Virus record (IMG/VR): IMGVR_UViG_3300015184_000033 | From: a virus | Taxonomy: Duplodnaviria; Heunggongvirae; Uroviricota; Caudoviricetes | Direction: 5' to 3' (one strand) | Length of the DNA stretch: 45,562 bases | In this document: piece by piece, positions 11,732 through 45,462 of the stretch | Position numbering within the stretch: the first letter of the stretch is position 1 | Layout of the letters: each line of letters begins with the position of its first letter | Position numbers and translations under genes: made by a program | Notes under the pieces: model-generated | Seen by the model: the letters and a program-made list of their open reading frames with translations, nothing else | Databases searched by the model: none | Told to the model about the DNA's origin: nothing

Positions 11732-12072
11732 ATCGGCATTCCTCTGTTAGTATTAACAGTGAGAGTTATTTCCAATACACCAACATTATCTGATACTTCA
11801 TCAACAATATAATTTTTACCGTTGATTTTCATTGACTGGTCTTTGACTGGGAGAACAGGAAAATCTTTTCTTGAAACAAACAATATTATTTGCCCCTGAT
11901 TTATTCCCTCTGCAAACTCAGCATATGAGCGTTTATTCCGCTCATGAATAAGGTCTGTATCAATAACGGCAAGGATATCCTTGCCGTCTATGTTATATGT
12001 ATCGGCAAACTCTTTTTCATTGAGGAATATTGCAGAAATATCTTGCGCTATAACCTCTTTGAAGGAGTTCAT
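11728..12072 (-). CDS. Putative head-tail connector (FII-like position)
   Basis: 114-aa ORF translationally coupled to neighbours downstream of capsid gene. Confidence 0.4.
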   Translation of the reverse strand: MNSFKEVIAQDISAIFLNEKEFADTYNIDGKDILAVIDTDLIHERNKRSYAEFAEGINQGQIILFVSRKDFPVLPVKDQSMKINGKNYIVDEVSDNVGVLEITLTVNTNRGMPI

Positions 12073-22477: not shown

Positions 22478-23094
22478 ACCTCCCCAGCCAGCAATGCGGA
22501 TACAAATCCGATATAGCTGCCATTATCATCAACATAACGAGACACCGCGCAGTCAAAACGATCCGCTTCCTCATCCGTTGCCGGGATTTTATGACCTCCA
22601 AATGACAGGTACTGAACTTTTACGCCTGATTTGGCCTCATCCTTCTCAAATGGGATATCCATACCCTCTGTGTCATCGTAGACCGCCGCACTCAATAAGT
22701 TATCCAGTTCGCGCTGAGTAAAACCAATTGAGTCCAGAGCAAAATCATCGGCCGCAAGATCTGCAAGCTCCGCGCTTAACAACTCTTCATCCCAACCAGC
22801 ATTCAGCGGAATACGGTTGTCGGCCAGACGATATGCCTTCTTCTGATTCTCCGTTAGCCCTTCCAGAACAATGCAGGGAACCTCATCCATCCCCAACTGA
22901 GTGGCCGCAGCAATTCGACCATGACCAGCAATTACAACGTTGTTCTCGTCTATCAGGATCGGATTAGTCCATCCGTACTCCTGTATGCTGGCAACAATCT
23001 GATCTACCTGCTCCACGGAGTGTGTGCGAGCGTTCTTTTCATAACCAATCAACACAGAAAGTGGTAAAGAAACCACATTAAGATGTTTTGTCAT
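22471..23094 (-). CDS. ParB-like nuclease domain protein (paralogue of 19214-19804)
   Basis: 207-aa ORF; NPILIDENNVVIAGHGRIAAA and NQKKAYRLADN closely parallel the other ParB-like protein. Confidence 0.75.
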   Translation of the reverse strand: MTKHLNVVSLPLSVLIGYEKNARTHSVEQVDQIVASIQEYGWTNPILIDENNVVIAGHGRIAAATQLGMDEVPCIVLEGLTENQKKAYRLADNRIPLNAGWDEELLSAELADLAADDFALDSIGFTQRELDNLLSAAVYDDTEGMDIPFEKDEAKSGVKVQYLSFGGHKIPATDEEADRFDCAVSRYVDDNGSYIGFVSALLAGEVC

Positions 23095-23328
23095 GCCGTT
23101 TATCCGCTAAAATCCCCTCGCTTGTGCAAGCAAGTGGGCCTCGGTTTGTATCCACGGCACCCTGTGGGTATGAATGACTGTCGTCAGGTCGCAACTGACG
23201 GCGGTCGCCCACCTTCCAGTAATAAAAAAGCCACCAGCATTAACTCCACAGCGAGCTGGAGTTAATGAGGCAGCTTTGGTTTGCGCATTATCGCAGCCCC
23301 TGATAAGCACAAGAGCTGCTGTAATGCG

Positions 23329-23739
23329 TTACGCAGGGATCAAACGGATGCGGCCGTTATTTACCTCAATACGAGAGTATTCCGGCTTACCATCAACGAT
23401 TCCGGTAATGACAAGTTCGCCATCAGACGAGCATTCTTCTTTGTCGTCTTCAAGTACCGCGCCTTCTGGCAAATCAACACAGGCAAAAACAGGGCAGCCT
23501 GGATAACGATCATCTTCCATCGCAATCAACATCGATTCACCGAACCACTCTGTGGTAGCACGACCATCAGCCGCCTGATAGTGAATCAAATACTGGTTTT
23601 CGCCATTTGCATACTGAGCACGGGCTTGAACTTCTCCCCACTCTTCACTGATACGCATTGTTACCAGTTGAGATAATTCAAACTTAAACGGAACAGACTC
23701 TGCACCAATGGCAATCGGTTTATCTTCTTTCTTTTCCAT
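23329..23739 (-). CDS. Hypothetical protein
   Basis: 136-aa acidic ORF with SD-like AGGTGA upstream; no recognised motif. Confidence 0.5.
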   Translation of the reverse strand: MEKKEDKPIAIGAESVPFKFELSQLVTMRISEEWGEVQARAQYANGENQYLIHYQAADGRATTEWFGESMLIAMEDDRYPGCPVFACVDLPEGAVLEDDKEECSSDGELVITGIVDGKPEYSRIEVNNGRIRLIPA

Positions 23740-23744
23740 AACAT

Positions 23745-23780
23745 CACCTGAAAATAAAAGCCCCGCGACACCGCGAGGCT
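23745..23780 (-). terminator. Putative intrinsic terminator/attenuator
   Basis: Minus-strand hairpin (cctcgcgg gtgt cgcgggg) followed by CTTTTATTTT, between small ORF and gene 23329-23739. Confidence 0.45.
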
Positions 23781-23787
23781 GTAAGAG

Positions 23788-23940
23788 TTACTTTCGATAG
23801 AAATCAAGGCGCATTTGCTCCCGCTTAAGCCGAAAAGCTCTCTGCGCCACTAAGATGCGCCACAGGACACCAGCAATAACCACCAGCGAGATACAAAAAC
23901 ACACGGCCACAATCATCAGAAAAATGCCAAGACCATTCAT
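23788..23940 (-). CDS. Small hydrophobic protein (50 aa), below ORF-track cutoff
   Basis: Hand translation MNGLGIFLMIVAVCFCISLVVIAGVLWRIL...; ATGA overlap with upstream gene stop. Confidence 0.35.
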   Translation of the reverse strand: MNGLGIFLMIVAVCFCISLVVIAGVLWRILVAQRAFRLKREQMRLDFYRK

Positions 23941-24143
23941 GAAACTATCCATTTTTCAATGAATACCTCCAGTAATATCAAGAGATACGCCGTACCCAGC
24001 GCGGTTCCTACCGATATAGCTAAGACAAACCTCAAAGATAACGAGGTGTCTTTCGCTTTTCTCCAGACGTAAGCGCCAGCCAGAAATACCAACAAATCTC
24101 TTATTGGAAGCGGAAACCAGAACAAATCACTCGGCAAGTCCAC
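23937..24143 (-). CDS. Small membrane protein
   Basis: 68-aa ORF with two hydrophobic segments. Confidence 0.45.
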   Translation of the reverse strand: MDLPSDLFWFPLPIRDLLVFLAGAYVWRKAKDTSLSLRFVLAISVGTALGTAYLLILLEVFIEKWIVS

Positions 24144-26150: not shown

Positions 26151-26226
26151 TGGTGGCCCCTACCGGATTTGAACCGATGACCGTGCGATTATGAGTCGCC
26201 TGCTCTAACCACTGAGCTAAGGGGCC
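26151..26226 (-). tRNA. tRNA with CAU anticodon (tRNA-Ile2/lysidine type more likely than tRNA-Met), CCA encoded
   Basis: Hand-folded cloverleaf: acceptor GGCCCCU/AGGGGCC, D-arm GCUC-AGUGGUUA-GAGC, anticodon loop CUCAUAA, T-arm AUCGG-UUCAAAU-CCGGU; 5' half matches remembered enterobacterial ileX. Confidence 0.8.
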
Positions 26227-33606: not shown

Positions 33607-34118
33607 TGATGGCCCCCGTCATTTCTGGTGCTTTTCACCGTGCGGCTTCTTAAAAACCTGCCATCACGAACAACAGACACTTCTCGTTTACCCAACCTCA
33701 TTTCACGGCGGTAACATTCAGAAAATGCCTCGTCCGGCATCATATAAATGCGACGCTTCGCCTCCGTATCCAGAAGGGAACGGCTTGGGGTTACATATAA
33801 AAACGACTCATCAATAGGGACAAAACCACGAGCAAGAATTACTGGCAGAATGCCAGGAAGAACGCAGAAAACAGCTCCACGATGCAGCAACATCTGGTAC
33901 TCCATGACCTCCGTTATCCCCGTGACTACTGTTACGGTGTCACGTCTGTTACGGCTGGCAACCAGTCGCTGCACACGTCCAATTTTCTGATCTACAGATA
34001 GATGTTTGCTATCGTTATCAATATGATCGATAACAAATCCTTTAATCGTTTGATCAAGGTAGTGCACCACCTTCGATTGAATCTGGTGATTATCACCAAA
34101 GAAGGCCAGAATCATCAT
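33603..34118 (-). CDS. Hypothetical protein (nin-like region)
   Basis: 171-aa ORF translationally coupled to the Cro-like gene. Confidence 0.45.
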   Translation of the reverse strand: MMILAFFGDNHQIQSKVVHYLDQTIKGFVIDHIDNDSKHLSVDQKIGRVQRLVASRNRRDTVTVVTGITEVMEYQMLLHRGAVFCVLPGILPVILARGFVPIDESFLYVTPSRSLLDTEAKRRIYMMPDEAFSECYRREMRLGKREVSVVRDGRFLRSRTVKSTRNDGGHQ

Positions 34119-34609
34119 TCCTCAAGCCTCCCAAGTGCTGAACGCCGGGCGTTGCTAATCTCCTTATGAATCAGCTCGATATCGCTGGAATCTTTATTCT
34201 TAAGCTCCAGCACGGTAATCGCATCACGAACCTCTGAAACGGTTACGTGTGAGTGTTTCCAGCGAGCAATGAATCGCGGACCGCGTAGATTGCAACGCTC
34301 CGCAGGCATCCCCAGCTCAGAGAAAACCGCTTTCAGCCTTGATAAGCAGTTAACAGGGAGATTCCCTTTGATCTTGTTCTGCCGAACCGATGTGCCATCG
34401 CTACGCTGGCGCTGACGTTCGGCAAAATCTGCCGCCCATTGCTGGACGTTAATCCGGCCTTCCGAATACGCCACCAGCAGCGTCAGGTTATCCGCACGAG
34501 GGAATCTCTCGAAGCGATACCAGGCACCAATCAGTGATGACGTAAAGCCAAACTTTCTGGCAACACCAATTTGGCCTCCATTTTCGTCAACCCACTCCTG
34601 AAAGGTCAT
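34115..34609 (-). CDS. Cro/YdaS-like HTH regulator, divergent from cI-like gene
   Basis: 164-aa ORF; N-terminal GGQIGVARKFGFTSSLIGAWYR resembles YdaS/Cro-type HTH. Confidence 0.5.
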   Translation of the reverse strand: MTFQEWVDENGGQIGVARKFGFTSSLIGAWYRFERFPRADNLTLLVAYSEGRINVQQWAADFAERQRQRSDGTSVRQNKIKGNLPVNCLSRLKAVFSELGMPAERCNLRGPRFIARWKHSHVTVSEVRDAITVLELKNKDSSDIELIHKEISNARRSALGRLEE

Positions 34610-34628
34610 TTAACGAACTCCAGTTAAA

Positions 34629-34746
34629 ACCACGATATGTGGTATTAAAACCACATATCGTGAGTTTTTCAATGGGCGAAACAAAAAATAACCTTCTATT
34701 TGTGGTCCACCTCTCGTCTTACCATGTGAAAACCACTAAATGTGGT
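34629..34746. promoter_or_regulatory. Operator cluster between divergent Cro-like and cI-like genes (ACCAC-N5-GTGGT sites)
   Basis: ACCACGATATGTGGT at 34629-34643, ACCACATATCGTGAG at 34650-34664, ACCACTAAATGTGGT at 34732-34746, plus GTGGTCCAC at about 34702. Confidence 0.6.
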
Positions 34747-34783
34747 AATGTATAAAGAACCCACCATTCACGATTGATGAGAC

Positions 34784-35440
34784 ATGAAAAGCAACGACGA
34801 GAACATCAAGAAAGAAATAGGTCTGCGCATTCAGACTCTACGGAAACAATCCGGCATGACTGCCGGAGATCTCCAGCAAGTCACTGGAATAGGCTTAAGC
34901 ACCTTGCAGAACTATGAGGCCGGATTAAGACAACCATCTATACCTGCCATCAAGAAAATCGCGCACGCCCTGAAAGCATCAGCGCCTTATATCGCGTGCT
35001 TAACAGATAACCCGTTCCCACCCCAGAATACTAACGCTCCTGTTATTCCTGGGCTTGTAGCTATAAAAAATGACATAGCATCGCACGCCGGAGAAAAGCC
35101 AGTGCTGGCGATAGAACAGGAGATTCTACGAAGCAAGAACATCAACCCATCGTCTCTGTCAGTTCTCCAGAGCAACGATGAGTTAATGTCACCAACAATA
35201 TCCCCTGGCTCCCAAGTCCTGATTAATACAGACGATACAGAGATTCATGAGGGGATCTATGCCCTTGAAGACAGAAATGGCCTGGTTGTTTTGAGGCACT
35301 GTAGAGTCATACCGGGTGACAATGCTGTTATGCTGTCAACCGAAAGGGATGCTGAAATGAACACTAAGCATCTGAATAACGAGGAATTTAAGCGTTATAA
35401 AGTTCTTGGCCGCGTAGTTAGTGTTGTCAACTGGTTATGA
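34784..35440 (+). CDS. cI-like repressor (HTH_XRE plus LexA-type S24 autopeptidase domain)
   Basis: 218-aa ORF; N-terminal HTH (LRKQSGMTAGDLQQVTGIGLSTLQNYEAG), C-terminal domain with MSPTISPG serine motif and a downstream Lys. Confidence 0.8.
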   Translation: MKSNDENIKKEIGLRIQTLRKQSGMTAGDLQQVTGIGLSTLQNYEAGLRQPSIPAIKKIAHALKASAPYIACLTDNPFPPQNTNAPVIPGLVAIKNDIASHAGEKPVLAIEQEILRSKNINPSSLSVLQSNDELMSPTISPGSQVLINTDDTEIHEGIYALEDRNGLVVLRHCRVIPGDNAVMLSTERDAEMNTKHLNNEEFKRYKVLGRVVSVVNWL

Positions 35441-35482: not shown

Positions 35483-35497
35483 ACCACATTTTGTGGT
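35483..35497. promoter_or_regulatory. Operator-like palindrome ACCACATTTTGTGGT downstream of cI-like gene
   Basis: Same dyad as the immunity-region operators; also a hairpin. Confidence 0.45.
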
Positions 35498-35532
35498 TTT
35501 GACAACATGTAAAAGTATAAAAGAGGCTACGC

Positions 35533-37215: not shown

Positions 37216-37230
37216 ATTCAACCATAAAAA

Positions 37231-37248
37231 AGGCCCCCGAAGGGGCCT
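37231..37248 (-). terminator. Intrinsic terminator hairpin
   Basis: AGGCCCC-CGAA-GGGGCCT; on the minus strand followed by TTTTTATGG. Confidence 0.55.
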
Positions 37249-37253
37249 AATCG

Positions 37254-37376
37254 CTACTTGCTGCTAATGTTTATCGTCACATTCAGAGCGTTATCAGTAA
37301 TCTTCCAACCCTCCCCATGTGGCGTAAACAAAGCTCCAGTAACAACGATAAAAATACACATACAGTATTTTTTCAT
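37254..37376 (-). CDS. Small hydrophobic peptide (40 aa), candidate type-I toxin
   Basis: MKKYCMCIFIVVTGALFTPHGEGW...; SD-like AAGGG 5 nt upstream of ATG 37376; terminator immediately downstream. Confidence 0.35.
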   Translation of the reverse strand: MKKYCMCIFIVVTGALFTPHGEGWKITDNALNVTINISSK

Positions 37377-37440
37377 TGTGTGGCCCTTACAGGCCGTTTC
37401 ACGGCATCCCCACCGACGAAAATGACGCGAGAGCAAGCAC

Positions 37441-37460
37441 GCTGTTTGTGCCTGCGTGGT
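37441..37460. repeat. 20-bp direct repeat, copy 1 (GCTGTTTGTGCCTGCGTGGT)
   Basis: Matches 37691-37710 at 19 of 20 positions; lies 65 nt upstream of the small peptide ATG. Confidence 0.85.
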
Positions 37461-37690
37461 ACGGCAAGTGGATAATCCTTTCCTGAAAGTCAGTGCCCGG
37501 GTGCGAATCGGCGGAAAGGCCCCAAGCCATATTACACGTCATACCCTTCATAATGAAGGAATAAAAAACGCTTTTATTACATAAGATTACACGTAAATAA
37601 GTTAAAAACCTTCATTTTGCATGAGCTAATGAGCTAAATTTTTTTATATGAATAGTGGACTATTCACCTCAGTTGGGTAAGAATGTAGTT

Positions 37691-37768: not shown

Positions 37769-37793
37769 CCGTCCTCAAAAGGACGGTTTTTTT
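37769..37793 (+). terminator. Intrinsic terminator (bidirectional hairpin)
   Basis: CCGTCCT-CAAAA-AGGACGG followed by TTTTTTT on plus strand; also overlaps the stop codon of the minus-strand HTH gene. Confidence 0.5.
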
Positions 37794-38347
37794 GTTTCTC
37801 CCCCTTCCTTCCCAAATGATTCAAATGTTAATGAGAGAGAATCATTTGATATGTTCGATTTAGCGCCGTTATCGACCCAATTTCTGTATGCTTCATCACA
37901 ACAGTACCTTACAGCAGTTGGAATAACAGGAGAGCCGCCCAGAAATGAAAATCCCATTGAGCTTATGCTAATTCTTTCGAATGGCCTATTTCTCAATGCT
38001 TCAAATCCCTTGCTGTTGAAGTAACTCAGCATCAGAGGTAAAAGGTTATCCTCATCTTGACTGATTGTTCCCGGGAAAAAGTAGTAACCATGGCGATTAA
38101 ATTCGGGAATCAGTTTTTCTACCAACAACATGAAATTCATTGGGGTAATATTAAGGGCAGAGCAAGCACCAAAAAGAGCATCAACCGTTAATACAGACTG
38201 TCCGTTCTCTATCTTTGTCCATGCGTTTGGTGTTTTTCCAGCAGCTTGAGCCAGCACTCCTTGATGCACACCTCTTTCTAGCCTAAGTTCTTTTATGATC
38301 ATTAGGTGGATTGTTGAAAAACATGAGTTTTTTGACGTTTCAGTCAT
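37775..38347 (-). CDS. XRE-family HTH regulator (second repressor-like protein)
   Basis: Start placed at ATG 38347 (GGGGA upstream); HTH segment IKELRLERGVHQGVLAQAAGKTPNAWTKIENGQ. Confidence 0.55.
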   Translation of the reverse strand: MTETSKNSCFSTIHLMIIKELRLERGVHQGVLAQAAGKTPNAWTKIENGQSVLTVDALFGACSALNITPMNFMLLVEKLIPEFNRHGYYFFPGTISQDEDNLLPLMLSYFNSKGFEALRNRPFERISISSMGFSFLGGSPVIPTAVRYCCDEAYRNWVDNGAKSNISNDSLSLTFESFGKEGGETKKPSF

Positions 38348-38485
38348 TTTTTTATCCCCATATTGAATTTTTTCCTTGTTCCCAACTTTAACAAAACACC
38401 ACAACCCAGGATTGAGTCATTCCTTACAGGAACTATACATTCCCGTCTTTGGTATATCAAGAAAATTAAAAGCTCGGCATTCAAA

Positions 38486-38500
38486 CCCACACTATGTGGT
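38486..38500. promoter_or_regulatory. Operator-like dyad CCCACACTATGTGGT between HTH gene and antirepressor operon
   Basis: Matches ACCAC-N5-GTGGT family at 9 of 10 half-site positions. Confidence 0.45.
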
Positions 38501-38612
38501 TTAGTCTGTTAAAATCCGCCGTATTGACATGAATGCGCCATTGGTGGACACTTTCCGAGCCGTAGCAAAATCTACGGTCGGGATTGGAACCCCGATAATC
38601 ATCATGGCGCAT

Positions 38613-38635
38613 ACCGCGTTAGCGGTTTTTTTATG
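38613..38635 (+). terminator. Attenuator-like hairpin with T-run in the antirepressor leader
   Basis: ACCGC-GTTA-GCGGT followed by TTTTTTTAT; outer arms GCGCATA/TATGCG allow an alternative pairing. Confidence 0.4.
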
Positions 38636-38797
38636 CGTAAAGCACTGCTACACCCAAATTATGGTGGGGCGTGCGGGGGAGTCGTTAGACTCGCCGGATT
38701 CCATGGTGACCGGTAGTTCCAACCCTGTACGTCTCACCACCCAATGATTGGAACCAGACGGTGGTGAGTATCCTTAACCTTTAAGGGAACTATCACC

Positions 38798-38989
38798 ATG
38801 ACAAACTTACCCCATGACTATTACGTCAACCTCGTAAAGATCCTTCTCAAGAAAGCCTCATACGCCGATAAATTACGCCTGGCTGAAATCATCGAGCGCG
38901 AAGCTATGCGCATCGCCAGCAACGATAACGCTGTTTCTGACGCAAAAATCTCCCTCGTAACCAAAGTAGTTATGGGAGGTGCAAAATGA
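38798..38989 (+). CDS. Small protein preceding antirepressor (Icd-like position)
   Basis: 63-aa ORF with SD AAGGGAA; stop overlaps the antirepressor ATG (ATGA). Confidence 0.45.
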   Translation: MTNLPHDYYVNLVKILLKKASYADKLRLAEIIEREAMRIASNDNAVSDAKISLVTKVVMGGAK

Positions 38990-40155
38990 AAACGCTTCCG
39001 ACCGTTAACACCCTACAGCCTATCCTGCATAACCAGATCCCCGTTATCACTACTGAACTTTTGGCGCAGTTTTACGGCACCGAGATCAACAATATCAAAG
39101 TCAATTACACCCGTAATGCTGAAAGGTTTGTTGAGGGAAAACACTTTTTCAAAGTTGGTGGCGATGCCCTGAAAAATTTGCGGGTTACTTTAAGTAACTC
39201 ACAAAATTTGCAACCATCTTTAAGAGGGTTACAAATTTCCCCGAAAGCCCGCTCCCTCATTCTCTGGACAGAACGCGGGGCTGCACGTCACGCTAAAATG
39301 CTCGAAACCGATCAGGCGTGGGATGTATTCGAACGGCTGGAAGACTGCTATTTCAACCAGAACGCGCAAACGGCCGCGACCGTAACCGTCTCGCCAAACA
39401 ATGCTCGTGAGGTTGTCGATACGCTCAACGCCAAACCGATGTTTTACATTAAGGTGTGCAATAACGAGCCACTCACAACCTCAGCCGATGTTGCCCAGGC
39501 ATTCAGCACCACAAACAATTCCATCGTTATGGCCATCGATGCGTTACGCATTCCTCGCACAGCTGCGGCGCGTCATTTCTTTAAAGAGCAACGACCGTTG
39601 GAAGGAAGCGACCGCGAAATAACAATCTATCGCATGACAAAAGACGGATTTACCTTGCTCATGGAAAGTATCGACGGTCCAGGCGTGAAGGATATCAAGC
39701 TGGCCTACATTGAAGCCTTTAACGCTATCAGCAGCGTGTTAAAAACACAGTACGAGCGCGATCTGGCTAAACGACTGTACCAGGAAAAAACGATTATCCG
39801 CGCGGCAACAGAGCATAATCGGCTATTAACGGAACCGAACTACAGGAAGGAACTAATCAAGGAGTTTGACAAGGCAACAGGGAAAACCAAAGCGGCGCTA
39901 AATCTGCCAGCAATGACTCAGGAAAATGTGATATCAGCCTTACTTCTTGATCTGCTCAGAAACGCCAGAGCACTGATCAGCTTTGACGAAAACCTGAATC
40001 CTCAGCTCAAGCTACTACCACCGACAGGCAAAGTAGTCGACCAGGCAGATCACAACAGCATACTCAGCGTACTGGATGCAAACCTGCCAGCCAGGACACT
40101 ACAGGAGCTGATAAAAACATGTGCTGATAAGCTCGCACAGAAAAGCAGACCATAA
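38986..40155 (+). CDS. Antirepressor (AntA-like N-terminal domain)
   Basis: 389-aa ORF; N-terminus HNQIPVITTELLAQFYGTEINNIKVNYTRNAERFVEGKHFFKV matches the phage antirepressor N-terminal signature. Confidence 0.8.
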   Translation: MKTLPTVNTLQPILHNQIPVITTELLAQFYGTEINNIKVNYTRNAERFVEGKHFFKVGGDALKNLRVTLSNSQNLQPSLRGLQISPKARSLILWTERGAARHAKMLETDQAWDVFERLEDCYFNQNAQTAATVTVSPNNAREVVDTLNAKPMFYIKVCNNEPLTTSADVAQAFSTTNNSIVMAIDALRIPRTAAARHFFKEQRPLEGSDREITIYRMTKDGFTLLMESIDGPGVKDIKLAYIEAFNAISSVLKTQYERDLAKRLYQEKTIIRAATEHNRLLTEPNYRKELIKEFDKATGKTKAALNLPAMTQENVISALLLDLLRNARALISFDENLNPQLKLLPPTGKVVDQADHNSILSVLDANLPARTLQELIKTCADKLAQKSRP

Positions 40156-41632: not shown

Positions 41633-41932
41633 TCAGATGTTAAACGCTATTCGTTTTCCTGTGGGAAGCTCAACATCCAGGCTTAATTTGCCTCCCATAG
41701 CTTCAACGTAACGCTTTAATGTCGCCAGCTTTAAATCATTTCCGCGCTGCTCCAGCTTTGTTACTGCTGGCTGGCTTATACCCATCGCCTCAGCAACCTG
41801 TTTTTGTGATAACTGGAGTTCTTCACGCATCATCTGCAAGCCGACCTCAAGAATCATCTCATCTGCCATTTCTTTAATTCGCGCCTGGCTTTCCGGTGAA
41901 CGGCTGGCAATCGCCTCATCTAATGTTCTCAT
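41633..41932 (-). CDS. HigA-like HTH antitoxin
   Basis: 99-aa ORF with XRE-type HTH (LQLSQKQVAEAMGISQPAVTKLEQ); immediately downstream of toxin-like ORF. Confidence 0.65.
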   Translation of the reverse strand: MRTLDEAIASRSPESQARIKEMADEMILEVGLQMMREELQLSQKQVAEAMGISQPAVTKLEQRGNDLKLATLKRYVEAMGGKLSLDVELPTGKRIAFNI

Positions 41933-42279
41933 TACTTGCTCTCCAGTGTGTTCAGATGTGCTGCAAACTCATCCTCAGCTATACGCACCAGTTTTTCATA
42001 AAACCGCTTATCGTTACTTTTGTCTCCTGCACAAAGAACGATGGCCCGGCGAATCGGATCGAACGCATAAAAGGCTCTTATCGGACGGCCAGAAAACTGA
42101 ACGCGAAGCTCTTTCATATTTTTGTACCGAGAACCTTTTACGGTATCGGCATATGGCCTGGGTAACTCAGGTCCGTAAACCTGTAGCTTTTTCAAATCAG
42201 CCAAAACCTTTTCCTGAAGAGCGTCTTCTTGCTCATTTAGCCAGTCGTCAAATCGCTGGCTAAAAAGTACCGTCCACAT
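41932..42279 (-). CDS. HigB/RelE-superfamily toxin-like protein (Gp49-like)
   Basis: About 115 aa from ATG 42279 (AGGA upstream); motifs KELRVQFSGRPIRAFYAF and VLCAGDKSND typical of HigB-like killer proteins; toxin-first order. Confidence 0.6.
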   Translation of the reverse strand: MWTVLFSQRFDDWLNEQEDALQEKVLADLKKLQVYGPELPRPYADTVKGSRYKNMKELRVQFSGRPIRAFYAFDPIRRAIVLCAGDKSNDKRFYEKLVRIAEDEFAAHLNTLESK

Positions 42280-42523
42280 GCTCAATCCTATAACCTGTAG
42301 TTTATATCACTAACTATATAACCTGTGAGTTATAATTTCAAGAAAAACGGGGCTATTTAACATAATGGACGTTATCGGCACCACCGGATCACCGTTCATT
42401 GTCGGATCTAAAAAATCCGCTCAAAAGATCATGTTTTCCTGGGCGTTTTCCACCGTTTTTTATGTTGCTTATTTGTTAATGAAATCTCGTTTTCAGTTTC
42501 GCCTCATTTTCGACGCGAAAGCC

Positions 42524-43743: not shown

Positions 43744-44592
43744 TTAATGTTGGAGTGATTTCCAGGTCTTTCTTAACCTGTTATAACGCTGCTCAACGAG
43801 GGATCGTAAATATGCAAGGTCAGCTCCAGGATACATGCCATCAGCAAATTCCTGGCTAACCTCTCTAGTGATTTGATGACGAAGTTCGGCCTCTCCCTTT
43901 TCCCGAACAAGACGCGCAGCTCTCTCCGCTGCTTTCTGTTTTGCCTTTATCTCTCTGGCCGTCTTCCTCTGACGCCATACATTCTCCATCTGCTCCTGAA
44001 TAACAATACGCTTATAATCAGCCTCCGTTATCGCTTTTTTAAGCCGTTCGCTATTCTTCGCATTGAAGTAATTAAGTTTCTGGCTAACCGCACGTCTCCA
44101 TGCTTGTTCAGTAATACCAACGGTTTCCAGCAGTTGATCACGAATCTCTATTTTCGCTGGCCAATACTGTTTATTCACCCGATCCCAGCGACGTTCATAA
44201 TCAATAAAACCTAACTCTTTCAGTTGCGACAACGCCCTTGTACAGCGCGTTATAGACTTGTTCCCAGCTTCGGATACGGTAGACAGGCCGCAAAAATCAG
44301 CCAACGCCTCAGCACTGGCCAGAACCCGCTTAGAAATGATGTTTACATGGTGCAAAATCGCAGCAATCACAGCATTAATTGCCCGACGACGATGCTCGTT
44401 TATCCGGCGTTTCCGCTCTGACGGTTGATTAACGTAGAACGCAACCTCACACGTAAGATCACGACCATTAATGCGCTGTAAAGCATCAGATAACACCAGC
44501 GGCAGCTTGTGCGTATGGTGCTTTGGAGGCTGGAACTCCGGCGACAAATTACAAACGTAAGCTGAACGTAGAGACGGCATTGGTCTATCCAT
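43744..44592 (-). CDS. repA: Replication initiator RepA (IncFII RepA1 family)
   Basis: Block SITRCTRALSQLKELGFIDYE aligns with remembered R100 RepA1 SITRATRALTFLSELGLITYQ; start set at ATG 44592 because the tracked ORF starts at GTG 44736 and its first codons overlap an antisense-strand terminator hairpin. Confidence 0.75.
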   Translation of the reverse strand: MDRPMPSLRSAYVCNLSPEFQPPKHHTHKLPLVLSDALQRINGRDLTCEVAFYVNQPSERKRRINEHRRRAINAVIAAILHHVNIISKRVLASAEALADFCGLSTVSEAGNKSITRCTRALSQLKELGFIDYERRWDRVNKQYWPAKIEIRDQLLETVGITEQAWRRAVSQKLNYFNAKNSERLKKAITEADYKRIVIQEQMENVWRQRKTAREIKAKQKAAERAARLVREKGEAELRHQITREVSQEFADGMYPGADLAYLRSLVEQRYNRLRKTWKSLQH

Positions 44593-44690
44593 ATGTTCGC
44601 TCTTGCGTCCACGGAAAACCAACGTATAATGGGAGTTGTCGAGGCGCCCATGGTTAGTTGTTGGTTTTCCTTTCCGTGGATGTCGCAAGA

Positions 44691-44722
44691 AGCCCGCAGA
44701 TTTATCTGCGGGCTTTTTGTTT
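44691..44722 (+). terminator. Hairpin plus T-run antisense to the repA leader (candidate CopA-like antisense RNA terminator)
   Basis: GCCCGCAGA-TTTA-TCTGCGGGC followed by TTTTTGTTT on the plus strand. Confidence 0.45.
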
Positions 44723-44762
44723 CCATATCTGGTCACTTTTCAACCAGACACCCACAATCATA

Positions 44763-44777
44763 ACCACGTTACGTGGT
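44763..44777. promoter_or_regulatory. Operator-like dyad ACCACGTTACGTGGT upstream of the repA leader
   Basis: Perfect ACCAC-N5-GTGGT dyad, same family as immunity-region operators. Confidence 0.5.
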
Positions 44778-44907
44778 TTTAAGAGAACTCTACCACAACA
44801 CTTTCGGTCATGCACGAAGTCTCTCACTGATCGAACGATAATCCACCAGTAAAAGGATCTAAATTGGATCTCGTTTTGCGAGCATCATACTACTGGCCTA
44901 ACTCCAG

Positions 44908-45462
44908 TCAATGATTCCCAGCCGGAAACCTGCGGTAAAGCGTGGATAAGGTAACATCGAAGATAATCGCTATCCGCTTACGTGAAACACCATTCGCAAT
45001 AAGCCTTCCGATCTGTTCCCATTGCTCTGGTGCCAATTTTGAGCGGCGTCCTCCTATCCTGCCGTTAGCCCTTGCCACCGCCAATCCTGCACGCGTTCTT
45101 TCAATCATATTTTCCCGCTCCATCTCTGCGACTGCACTCAGCATCGTGTAGGCAAAGCGGCCAATTGAAGTGCTAATTTTTATCCCTTCCGTAATCGAAA
45201 TAAACTCAATGTTGTTTGATAAAAAATGGTTAAGTAAATCAACAAGATGAATCAGAGAACGCCCCATTCGGTCCAGCTTCCAGACAATAACCGTATCGCC
45301 CGGCCGTAACACCTTCAGTAGCTTATCAAGTCCTGGTCGTTTTGATTTAGCACCGGATATTTTATCTTCAAAAATCCGGTCACATCCTGAACTCCTGAGC
45401 GCCTCCAGTTGTAATTCCAAATTCTGGTCAAAAGTTGACACCCTCGCATAACCATATTGCAT
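44908..45462 (-). CDS. Serine recombinase, DNA invertase of the Hin/Gin/Cin/Pin family
   Basis: 184-aa ORF; MQYGYARVSTFDQNLELQ...GDTVIVWKLDRMGRS...RIAIIFDVTLSTLYRRFPAGNH parallels remembered Hin sequence including catalytic Ser region and C-terminal HTH. Confidence 0.9.
   Translation of the reverse strand: MQYGYARVSTFDQNLELQLEALRSSGCDRIFEDKISGAKSKRPGLDKLLKVLRPGDTVIVWKLDRMGRSLIHLVDLLNHFLSNNIEFISITEGIKISTSIGRFAYTMLSAVAEMERENMIERTRAGLAVARANGRIGGRRSKLAPEQWEQIGRLIANGVSRKRIAIIFDVTLSTLYRRFPAGNH

What the first reader, a model, noticed from the sequence alone, without database searches (positions are those of the whole stretch)
34629..34746. ACCAC-N5-GTGGT operator family links the immunity switch, the antirepressor region and repA
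Perfect or near-perfect dyads occur between the divergent Cro-like and cI-like genes (34629-34643, 34650-34664, 34732-34746), after the cI-like gene (35483-35497), between the second HTH regulator and the antirepressor operon (38486-38500), and immediately upstream of the repA leader (44763-44777). One repressor could therefore control the lytic switch, antirepressor expression and plasmid replication together, as I recall for N15 CB repressor and P1 C1.
Basis: partly seen in the sequence, partly recalled or inferred. Interest (0 to 1): 0.65.

Follow-up and report, generated by a model that had tools for sequence, protein, structure and literature searches.

The report
Shared repressor operators in a phage-plasmid
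A 48-kb virus that lives as a plasmid in E. coli carries six copies of one short palindromic DNA site, placed at its lysis/lysogeny switch, at its antirepressor operon and at its replication gene, so a single repressor probably ties plasmid copying to the decision to stay dormant.

Summary
ACCAC-N5-GTGGT occurs four times perfectly (0.03 expected). A matrix trained only on the four immunity-region sites ranks the repA site (44763) and the ant site (38486) among the six best of the window, far above random sequence. The window is a p-p47-family phage-plasmid (E. coli/Yersinia, about 48 kb).

In six diverged lineages the sites keep their places. The two 5-bp half-sites are almost invariant (2% pairwise difference), while the central N5 (40%) and outer flanks (32%) drift. 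Distant lineages use ACTAC-type switch sites and carry ACTAC-N5-GTAGC at the repA promoter.

The sites overlap conserved promoter elements:
- the -10/+1 and spacer of the cro-side promoter;
- the extended -10 of the cI promoter;
- the -35 zone of an upstream promoter of the isrK-C4-ant operon;
- +4 to +18 of a conserved TGnTAGAGT promoter of an IncFII-type repA, which has a CopA-like antisense RNA but no copB.

The 190-aa XRE regulator is dispensable, so the HTH cI-like protein is the likely binder, though binding is untested.

The logic matches N15/phiKO2 CB (operators at repA) and P1 C1 (operator at c4-ant), on a different replicon. I rate it a new variant of a known kind, of moderate interest.

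The parts
34629..34643 (.). Operator O-a, perfect dyad ACCACGATATGTGGT. It abuts the -10 of the cro-side promoter and covers about -6 to +9.
   Evidence: Conserved in all ACCAC-group relatives.
34650..34664 (.). Operator O-b, ACCACATATCGTGAG (2 mismatches). It fills the 17-nt spacer of the cro-side promoter and lies 21 bp centre-to-centre from O-a.
   Evidence: 24.5 bits. Relatives have ACCAC-N5-GTGGG here.
34626..34667 (.). 42-bp palindrome formed by O-a and O-b with their A/T flanks, centred on the AT-rich hexamer.
   Evidence: 21-nt arms, 86% complementary.
34644..34672 (-). Candidate early (PR-like) promoter toward the 164-aa gene: -35 TTGAAA (34672..34667), 17-nt spacer, -10 TTTAAT (34649..34644).
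   Evidence: Read. The same TTGAWA-17-TTWWAT layout is seen in Salmonella, L013, Serratia and L014. The consensus scan does not call it because position 2 of the -10 is T.
34115..34609 (-). 164-aa first gene of the leftward early operon, 'Cro-like' by position only.
   Evidence: No Pfam family even at E<=10. PHROG 7452, unknown function. The AlphaFold model is all-helical but low confidence, pLDDT 56.
34732..34746 (.). Operator O-c, perfect dyad ACCACTAAATGTGGT. Its right half supplies the TG of the extended -10 of the cI-side promoter.
   Evidence: Invariant half-sites in relatives.
34743..34751 (+). Candidate cI (PRM-like) promoter, extended -10 TGgTAATGT.
   Evidence: Read. The pattern TGnTAnnnT directly after the dyad recurs in most lineages examined, but not in Serratia L003, which has TAgTAACCT.
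34784..35440 (+). 218-aa cI-like repressor: N-terminal Cro/C1-type HTH and an uncharacterised C-terminal domain.
   Evidence: Pfam HTH_3 at 43 bits; Peptidase_S24 at only 18.4 bits against a cut-off of 23.3. PDB matches cover the HTH only. The model is confident for residues 4-70 only. The recognition helix STLQNYEAG is conserved in all lineages.
35483..35497 (.). Operator O-d, perfect dyad ACCACATTTTGTGGT. It lies after the cI terminator hairpin and 35 nt before the 124-aa/parA operon, a position like OL of lambda and N15.
   Evidence: 30.0 bits, best in the window. Conserved in all lineages, including the distant ones.
38486..38500 (.). Operator O-e, CCCACACTATGTGGT (1 mismatch). It overlaps the -35 zone of the upstream promoter of the isrK-C4-ant operon.
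   Evidence: 21.0 bits. Conserved in every E. coli-group locus whatever lies to its left. Equivalent site in L013 and L024. Absent from L002 and L027.
38507..38515 (+). Candidate operator-controlled promoter of the ant operon, extended -10 TGTTAAAAT.
   Evidence: Read. L013 and L024 have TGGTAGATT at the same offset.
38524..38552 (+). Conserved second promoter, TTGACA-17-GACACT, which would start transcription at the 5' end of the isrK-like RNA.
   Evidence: The isrK model starts at 38559.
38559..38744 (+). isrK-like RNA (38559-38632) and C4 antisense RNA (38657-38744), the leader of the antirepressor operon.
   Evidence: Rfam isrK at 70.2 bits (cut-off 50); C4 at 84 bits (cut-off 45).
38798..40155 (+). 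63-aa ORF and 389-aa antirepressor (ORF6N + Rha domains).
44763..44777 (.). Operator O-f, perfect dyad ACCACGTTACGTGGT. It lies at about +4 to +18 of the conserved proximal repA promoter.
   Evidence: 26.0 bits. Positional conservation and change of type with the switch sites.
44787..44795 (-). Proximal repA promoter P2, extended -10 TGGTAGAGT. TGnTAGAGT is present in five lineages; L016 has TGCTAAAGT.
44884..44911 (-). Distal repA promoter P1, TTGACT-16-TATGAT, conserved in all lineages.
44607..44722 (+). CopA-like antisense RNA in the repA leader: a long hairpin plus a terminator GCCCGCAGATTTATCTGCGGGCTTTTT.
   Evidence: Structure detected as stem plus terminator. Conserved hairpin. Copy-up mutations in the family map to predicted CopA loop II (bioRxiv 10.64898/2026.08.19.745698).
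43744..44736 (-). IncFII-type repA. The ORF is drawn from the first start codon; the real start is probably Met53, near 44580.
   Evidence: Pfam IncFII_repA at 150.7 bits, residues 57-323. Annotated starts in relatives.

Best explanation
The six dyads are the operator set of this phage-plasmid's own cI-type HTH repressor (218 aa). The product of the divergent 164-aa gene may share them.

Proposed mechanism:
1. A repressor dimer recognises two ACCAC half-sites 10 bp apart, flanked by A/T tracts.
2. O-a and O-b, two helical turns apart, sandwich the -10 of the early leftward promoter and shut off the lytic operon.
3. O-c overlaps the extended -10 of the repressor's own promoter. It would give autoregulation, or be the target of the lytic regulator.
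4. O-d sits after the cI terminator in the OL-like position. Its role is open: a looping partner, or an operator of the p124-parA operon.
5. O-e blocks the upstream of two promoters of the isrK-C4-ant operon.
6. O-f lies at +4..+18 of the proximal promoter of an IncFII-type repA, and downstream of the distal promoter.

In lysogeny the repressor would therefore hold repA transcription low. It would occupy the slot that CopB has in R1-type plasmids, while the CopA-like antisense RNA sets copy number. When the repressor is inactivated, most plausibly by the Ant antirepressor, the lytic operon, more ant and repA would all be released together, giving a replication burst from the only replicon the element has.

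Shown: the sites, their enrichment, their conservation pattern and their overlap with conserved promoter motifs. Inferred: which protein binds, the transcription starts, and the effect on copy number.
For: - Enrichment: 4 perfect sites against 0.03 expected. Held-out sites rank #3 and #6 of the window with a matrix trained on the immunity region, with 0/500 and 1/500 random sequences reaching those scores.
- Footprint-like conservation across six lineages with cI 61-100% identical: pairwise difference per position is 0.020 in half-sites, 0.091 in the inner A/T flanks, 0.400 in N5 and 0.321 in outer flanks.
- Same layout in Salmonella, Citrobacter, Klebsiella and Yokenella-type relatives.
- Change of type together: lineages whose switch sites are mainly ACTAC (L014-L018) carry ACTAC-AAAAC-GTAGC at the repA promoter. 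L019 and Serratia keep the half-site AAACCACAWWTT typical of their own switch. L016 has the ACTAC-type promoter and operator although its RepA body is 59% identical to the window's.
- Promoter overlap is conserved.
- The XRE regulator is absent from L002, L006 and L008-L010, which keep the sites.
- cI has the only recognised DNA-binding domain next to the sites, and its recognition helix is conserved.
- The early operon shows no replication initiator or helicase; one 355-aa protein weakly matches a primase-annotated PHROG.
- There is no copB ORF between P1 and P2.
- Published precedent: N15/phiKO2 CB binds OL at the repA promoter and lowers copy number (PMC4997575).
- Family data: one high-copy mutant had only a SNP in 'a potential transcriptional regulator' on the phage-plasmid, and there was no induction by mitomycin C or ciprofloxacin. 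In line with the latter, no LexA box lies nearby.
Against: - No binding, footprint, transcription-start or reporter data exist for any site.
- CopA/CopT point mutations alone raise copy number up to about 400-fold with the repressor gene intact and without changing repA mRNA level. Repressor control at O-f therefore cannot be the main brake on copy number, and may be modest in lysogens.
- The regulator mutated in the high-copy mutant is not identified.
- The ant-side site is missing in two lineages, so that link is optional.
- The cro-side -10 lacks the canonical A at position 2, and no convincing promoter could be placed at O-d.
- All lineages share nearly the same recognition helix, so the ACCAC/ACTAC shift is a weak form of covariation.
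- The 164-aa and 124-aa neighbours are universal in the family and cannot be excluded as binders.
Confidence: 0.72

Rival explanations
1. The dyads are real operators but are bound by another element-encoded protein. Candidates are the 164-aa 'Cro-like' product alone, the conserved 124-aa protein downstream of O-d, or the small ParG-like partner of ParA. The cI-like protein would then recognise something else.
For: These genes are present in every family member and lie next to sites. The 164-aa model is helical with a possible helix-turn-helix at residues 12-32. O-d sits directly upstream of the p124-parA operon, where partition operons are often autoregulated.
Against: None of them has a detectable DNA-binding domain, and the models are low confidence. 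Partition centromeres are clustered repeats, not single dyads at the cI, cro, ant and repA promoters. A dyad with 10-bp half-site spacing is what a dimeric Cro/C1-type HTH protein such as the 218-aa product would be expected to bind. In lambda-type switches, repressor and Cro usually share sites, so Cro binding would add to the main reading rather than replace it.
Confidence: 0.12
2. Only the immunity-region sites are operators. The repA and ant sites would be look-alikes with another role, for example a CopB-type or host-factor (DnaA-box-like TTATCCACA) site intrinsic to the IncFII promoter.
For: The half-site AAAACCACA loosely resembles a DnaA box (from memory). IncFII PrepA promoters do carry a repressor operator at this place in R1 (textbook knowledge). 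CopA mutations alone suffice for runaway copy number.
Against: A perfect match outside the immunity region has a window-wide expectation of about 0.03, and the held-out score was reached in 0/500 random sequences. The site keeps exact ACCAC/GTGGT halves while its N5 changes between lineages. It switches to ACTAC in lineages with ACTAC switch sites. No copB-like ORF exists. DnaA boxes are not perfect 15-bp dyads.
Confidence: 0.06
3. The dyads act as RNA or DNA hairpins (terminators, attenuators or processing sites) rather than protein-binding sites.
For: The terminator scan flags 34630-34663 and 38487-38499 as stem-loops followed by T runs.
Against: Single dyads give only 5-bp stems. Selection acts on the identity of the half-site bases (the same ACCAC at six places and in six lineages), not merely on complementarity. 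No compensatory changes are seen, and the loop (N5) drifts freely. The sites lie at promoters, mostly upstream of or at transcription starts.
Confidence: 0.03

Closest known systems
N15 / phiKO2 prophage repressor CB with OR1-3 and OL1-2 operators (linear phage-plasmids)
   Same: [quoted passage not shown] This lowers copy number and couples replication to the switch. CB also lacks the RecA-cleavage Ser/Lys residues, and induction goes through an antirepressor locus (PMC4997575; the antirepressor detail is from memory).
   Different: The operators differ: 16-bp T-A-N10-T-A against ACCAC-N5-GTGGT here. N15 RepA is a different protein, and its OL sites lie right next to cB. Here the replicon is IncFII-type, with CopA-like antisense control and two tandem promoters. 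Its single operator lies 9.3 kb from the repressor gene. The element is a circular myovirus-type genome, and the repressors share no more than the generic HTH.
Bacteriophage P1 C1 regulon, including the operator at the immI (c4-icd-ant) operon
   Same: Repressor operators are dispersed over a phage-plasmid genome. An antirepressor operon is preceded by a C4 antisense RNA (Rfam C4, 84 bits here) and by tandem promoters, of which the upstream one carries a repressor operator. The replication gene used for lytic growth is under repressor control (PMC8546580; the Op51 detail is from memory).
   Different: C1 is an unrelated protein with 22 asymmetric 17-bp operators. In P1 it controls the separate lytic replicon repL, not the plasmid replicon. 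Here the sites are six symmetric dyads, and the single replicon is the target.
IncFII (R1/R100) copy-number control: CopA antisense RNA plus CopB repressor of PrepA
   Same: An IncFII_repA protein; a long leader with an antisense RNA hairpin and terminator; copy-up mutations in CopA loop II; two tandem promoters, with a repressor site at the proximal one.
   Different: There is no copB gene between the promoters. The site at the proximal promoter is identical to the phage immunity operators, so the repressor would be the prophage repressor encoded 9 kb away. Rfam's CopA model does not match.
Lambda CI/Cro OR-OL switch
   Same: Divergent repressor and early genes, three dyad sites overlapping the two promoters, and a further site downstream of the repressor gene.
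   Different: Two sites flank the early -10 as one 42-bp palindrome, and the third lies 82 bp away. The C-terminal domain shows no significant S24 peptidase signature. There is no LexA/RecA link, and extra operators sit at ant and repA.

Membership tests
Lambda-type CI/Cro immunity switch | Divergent repressor and early-operon genes separated by several dyad operators that overlap both promoters | tested here: met
   Three sites in the 174-bp intergenic region overlap the candidate -35/-10 elements. The layout is conserved in about 10 lineages.
Lambda-type CI/Cro immunity switch | Repressor with an N-terminal HTH and a C-terminal S24 self-cleaving peptidase (Ser/Lys dyad, Ala-Gly site) | tested here: inconclusive
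   The HTH_3 domain is clear (43 bits). The S24 hit is below the cut-off (18.4 against 23.3). hhalign against LexA and lambda CI aligns no C-terminal domain. The AlphaFold pLDDT is below 50 in that region. By eye, the GDSM motif position reads DELM. The family member p-p49 is not induced by mitomycin C.
Lambda-type CI/Cro immunity switch | A Cro protein that binds the same operators | tested here: inconclusive
   The 164-aa product has no Pfam family, and its model is low confidence. Binding is not testable here.
N15/phiKO2-type dual control (prophage repressor operators at the plasmid replication gene) | Operators of the immunity type overlapping the repA promoter | tested here: met
   O-f is a perfect dyad at +4..+18 of the conserved TGnTAGAGT promoter. 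It ranks #3 of the window with the immunity-trained matrix, and it is conserved and changes type with the switch sites.
N15/phiKO2-type dual control (prophage repressor operators at the plasmid replication gene) | The repressor lowers repA transcription and plasmid copy number | not testable with these tools
   There is only an indirect hint: one high-copy mutant of p-p49 has a SNP in an unnamed regulator.
N15/phiKO2-type dual control (prophage repressor operators at the plasmid replication gene) | Homology of the repressor, operators and RepA to those of N15 | tested here: not met
   RepA is IncFII_repA. The operator motif differs from T-A-N10-T-A. The repressor family is restricted to 13 clusters at 60% identity or more, none named CB.
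P1 immI-type antirepressor control | C4 antisense RNA upstream of the ant gene(s) | tested here: met
   Rfam C4 at 84 bits (cut-off 45) at 38657-38744, preceded by isrK at 70.2 bits. The Ant protein has ORF6N + Rha domains.
P1 immI-type antirepressor control | Primary-repressor operator at a promoter of the c4-ant operon | tested here: met
   O-e lies 7 nt upstream of an extended -10, and the two are conserved as a unit in the E. coli group and in L013/L024. It is absent from L002 and L027.
P1 immI-type antirepressor control | C1-family repressor with asymmetric 17-bp operators | tested here: not met
   The sites are symmetric 15-bp dyads, and the repressor is an HTH_3 protein (PMC8546580).
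IncFII R1-type replication control | IncFII RepA protein | tested here: met
   PF02387 at 150.7 bits.
IncFII R1-type replication control | CopA antisense RNA against the repA leader | tested here: inconclusive
   A conserved hairpin plus terminator lies on the antisense strand at 44607-44722. No Rfam CopA match at E<=1. Copy-up mutations in the predicted CopA loop II are reported for the family.
IncFII R1-type replication control | copB gene between the distal and proximal promoters, encoding the PrepA repressor | tested here: not met
   Only about 100 nt separate P1 and P2. The sole ORF there is 10 codons long.

The most novel reading that the evidence does not exclude
In the p-p47 phage-plasmids, the prophage repressor has taken over the CopB slot of an IncFII replicon. 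Because it is plasmid-encoded, it would act both as a copy-number-sensing brake on the proximal repA promoter and as the trigger of runaway replication when the Ant antirepressor inactivates it. The same protein would also gate the upstream promoter of the ant operon, forming a positive-feedback loop. This would explain three published observations: the unexplained high-copy mutant with a regulator SNP, the drop in phage transfer at high copy number (more repressor genes), and the lack of SOS induction.
Probability: 0.45. Interest if true: 0.65.

Novelty: new variant of a known kind. Interest (0 to 1): 0.55.

Why it matters
This phage-plasmid family is common in clinical E. coli: 118 members are reported, and 45 PLSDB plasmids cover most of this region. 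It can carry blaTEM-1, and changes in its copy number cause piperacillin-tazobactam heteroresistance (bioRxiv 10.64898/2026.08.19.745698). Its regulatory circuit has not been described.

A defined six-site operator map with predicted promoters turns three open questions into simple experiments: how lysogeny, antirepressor release and copy number are coupled; what induces the element; and which regulator mutation gives high copy number.

Conceptually, it shows the N15-type solution (the prophage repressor controls the plasmid replicon) arising on an unrelated, antisense-RNA-controlled IncFII replicon. That suggests convergent wiring in phage-plasmids.

Tried and rejected
- A genome-contig scan with RepA found no relatives. 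Relatives were obtained instead from PLSDB, IMG/VR and contigs that encode cI homologues.
- XRE regulator as the binder: rejected. It is absent from, or replaced in, relatives that keep every site, and the mosaic breakpoint lies at the left edge of O-e.
- Test for a self-cleaving S24 domain in cI: BLASTP and hhalign against LexA and lambda CI gave nothing for the C-terminal half, and PDB sequence matches cover the HTH only. AlphaFold with 12 homologues gave pLDDT below 50 there, so I ran no fold search.
- HTH in the Cro-like protein: no Pfam hit at E<=10, and the AlphaFold pLDDT is 56. Left open.
- Rfam CopA in the repA leader: no match at E<=1. Only generic stem-plus-terminator look-alikes appeared, such as Thr_leader at 34.6 bits, below its cut-off.
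- LexA boxes: one in the whole window, at 11744, which is chance level and not near any regulatory region.
- A promoter at O-d: none convincing. TTGACA at 35499-35504 has no -10 at a workable distance.
- A possible seventh and eighth site (23051/23072, 21 bp apart) lies inside the first 15 codons of a ParB/Srx-like gene. It scores 15.8 bits, within the random range, and its conservation is explained by coding. Not counted.
- The supplementary tables of the p-p49 preprint, needed to identify the mutated regulator, are not held.

Full report
**What the window is.** The region is 97-98% identical to Yersinia phages vB_YpM_39/41/44 (49 kb, circular) and to about 48-kb non-mobilisable E. coli plasmids, including that of ATCC 25922. 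It encodes myovirus structural genes, an IncFII-type RepA, ParA, a Hin-like invertase and toxin-antitoxin pairs. A 2026 preprint names what is very likely this group the 'p-p47 family' of phage-plasmids. I did not compare the window with its sequences. It reports 118 members, copy number 1-3, a CopA/CopT-controlled repA and no induction by mitomycin C or ciprofloxacin. It does not discuss repressors or operators.

**Checking the observation.**
- ACCAC-N5-GTGGT occurs perfectly at 34629, 34732, 35483 and 44763, four times against 0.03 expected.
- 38486 has one mismatch.
- 34650 has two mismatches, but it is the mirror of 34629 within a 42-bp palindrome.
- All six sites share A-rich and T-rich flanks, giving the form AAA-ACCAC-N5-GTGGT-TTT.
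- A matrix built only from the four immunity-region sites ranks 44763 third (26.0 bits) and 38486 sixth (21.0 bits) in the whole window. The next position scores 15.8. The best score in 500 random 45.5-kb sequences averaged 12.9, with a maximum of 21.2.

The other one-mismatch matches are coding-sequence noise.

**Comparative evidence.** I collected four groups of relatives:
- E. coli-group loci with cI 99-100% identical: L001, L004-L011 and L020.
- A Salmonella/Citrobacter/Klebsiella/Yokenella-like group with cI 61-66% identical: L002, L012, L013 and L024-L029.
- A distant group with cI 28-33% and ParA 52-56% identical: Serratia L003 and L014-L019.
- Sources for all of these.

In every lineage of the first two groups the layout is the same: two sites 21 bp apart next to the early gene, one next to cI, one after the cI terminator, and one about 180 nt upstream of the annotated repA start. 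The ACCAC/GTGGT halves are intact and the central five bases differ. Across six lineages, the pairwise difference per position is 0.020 in the half-sites and 0.091 in the three flanking A/T positions. It is 0.400 in N5 and 0.321 further out. This is the footprint of a sequence-specific dimeric protein, not of an RNA hairpin, which would conserve pairing rather than base identity.

In the distant group the switch sites read ACTACAWWWTG or ACCACAWWWTG. At the homologous position of the repA promoter:
- L014, L015 and L016 carry ACTAC-AAAAC-GTAGC.
- L019 carries AAACCACAAATTGGGAG, one of only five matches to that lineage's 10-mer motif in 20.6 kb; three of the others are in its switch.
- Serratia carries AAAACCACATTTCGGGGT.
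- L016 has this ACTAC-type promoter and operator although its RepA body is 59% identical to the window's, against 31-36% for its sister lineages. The operator therefore follows the immunity type rather than the RepA type.

The recognition helix (STLQNYEAG) is almost unchanged in all lineages, with GL changed to PR just before it. The ACCAC/ACTAC shift is therefore a mild covariation.

**Anatomy at each place.**
1. *cro side.* On the minus strand the sequence reads TTGAAA (34672..34667), a 17-nt spacer that is O-b, TTTAAT (34649..34644), and then O-a immediately after. The same TTGAWA-17-TTWWAT arrangement recurs in Salmonella, L013, Serratia and L014. A repressor on O-a and O-b would occlude this promoter.
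2. *cI side.* O-c is followed directly by TAATGT, so its right half supplies an extended -10, TGgTAATGT. The pattern TGnTAnnnT is kept in most lineages examined; Serratia L003 reads TAgTAACCT instead. Occupancy here would repress cI transcription.
3. *After cI.* O-d lies after a terminator hairpin and 35 nt before the 124-aa/parA operon, the position of OL in lambda and N15. I could not place a convincing promoter there.
4. *ant.* Rfam finds an isrK-like RNA (38559-38632) and a C4 antisense RNA (38657-38744) ahead of the 63-aa ORF and the ORF6N/Rha antirepressor. A conserved TTGACA-17-GACACT promoter would start at the isrK 5' end. O-e lies upstream of it and 7 nt before an extended -10, TGTTAAAAT. 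In E. coli-group loci the sequence to the left of O-e is mosaic (three XRE variants, or no XRE gene at all), and the breakpoint falls exactly at the dyad's left edge. L013 and L024 have ACCACAATGCGTGAT followed by TGGTAGATT at the same place. Salmonella L002 and C. freundii L027 lack the upstream promoter and the site.
5. *repA.* Two tandem promoters are conserved in all lineages. The distal one is TTGACT-16-TATGAT (44911..44884). The proximal one is an extended -10, TGnTAGAGT (44795..44787); L016 reads TGCTAAAGT. O-f starts 9 nt after the proximal hexamer, at about +4..+18. Downstream, the leader carries a conserved antisense hairpin plus terminator (44607-44722, plus strand), where the preprint's copy-up mutations map. 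Between the two promoters there is no copB, only a 10-codon ORF and a conserved GATC pair.

**Who binds.**
- The XRE regulator is excluded by its absence from relatives that keep the sites.
- The 218-aa protein has a clear Cro/C1 HTH and is the natural candidate.
- Its C-terminal half could not be classified. The S24 hit is below threshold, there is no profile alignment to LexA or lambda CI, and the model is poor there.
- The 164-aa divergent gene product has no recognisable domain.
- No LexA box lies near any regulatory region. This agrees with the reported lack of SOS induction and points to the antirepressor as the route of induction.

**Mechanism and its limits.** The best reading is an N15-like circuit on an IncFII replicon. 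The prophage repressor shuts the early operon, tunes its own gene, blocks the upstream ant promoter and damps repA transcription. Inactivating it releases all of these at once. The early operon contains no evident replication initiator or helicase, though one 355-aa protein weakly matches a primase-annotated PHROG. Lytic replication therefore probably depends on RepA.

Against a dominant role in lysogens, CopA/CopT mutations alone give up to 400-fold copy-number increases without changing repA mRNA. The repressor is thus at most a secondary brake, as CopB is in R1. The single high-copy mutant with a regulator SNP fits the model, but the gene is not named.

**Comparison and novelty.** Dual control of immunity and plasmid replication by one repressor is established for N15/phiKO2 (PMC4997575). 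Dispersed operators are established for P1 (PMC8546580); that they include the c4-ant operon (Op51) I recall from memory, unchecked here. The new elements are the operator motif, the family, the IncFII/CopA replicon with the phage repressor in the CopB position, and the optional ant link. I rate it a new variant of a known kind. It has practical relevance because copy number in this family drives antibiotic heteroresistance.

Noticed in passing
window 37226-37524 (-): Full-length match to the ryfA RNA family (131 bits, cut-off 80). It lies inside the variable segment between the partition genes and the ant operon. It may be a type I toxin-antitoxin-like locus carried as cargo, next to the XRE regulator.
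   Followed up: no
window 44830-44870 (-); L002, L003, L014, L019 at the homologous place: A pair of GATC sites in a short inverted repeat (GATCCAATTTAGATCC) is conserved between the distal and proximal repA promoters in all lineages, although the surrounding sequence drifts. It could be a Dam/SeqA-sensitive element or another protein's site.
   Followed up: partly
window 23051-23086: Two degenerate dyads 21 bp apart (AACAC-N5-GTGGT, then ACCAC-N5-GATGT), with perfect inner halves like the O-a/O-b pair. They lie in the first 15 codons of a ParB/Srx-like gene and are also present in Salmonella L002. They score within the random range, and coding explains their conservation.
   Followed up: partly
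L016 18069-19700: This IMG/VR relative has a truncated L014-type repA leader and N-terminus, followed by a second, complete repA whose body is 59% identical to the window's. This suggests recombination inside the replication module.
   Followed up: partly
window 37775-38404 (-) and homologous places in L001, L005, L007, L011: The XRE-family regulator next to the ant operon exists in at least three sequence variants (80-93% identical). It is absent from other, otherwise near-identical elements, so it is a swappable accessory module. It has its own good promoter, TTGATA-17-TATAGT (38460..38432).
   Followed up: partly
window 41633-42285 (-) and 44908-45462 (-): A HigB/HigA-like toxin-antitoxin pair, and a Hin-type invertase next to inverted tail-fibre and assembly genes. 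The latter suggests host-range switching, as in P1 and Mu.
   Followed up: no
window 26154-26226 (-): A tRNA gene (67 bits). It is annotated tRNA-Met in Yersinia phage vB_YpM_41.
   Followed up: no
L003 (Serratia marcescens p2) 23202-24062: A distant family member carries blaTEM-1 just upstream of its repA region, as the p-p49 elements of the preprint do. The replication-proximal segment therefore looks like a recurrent cargo site.
   Followed up: no
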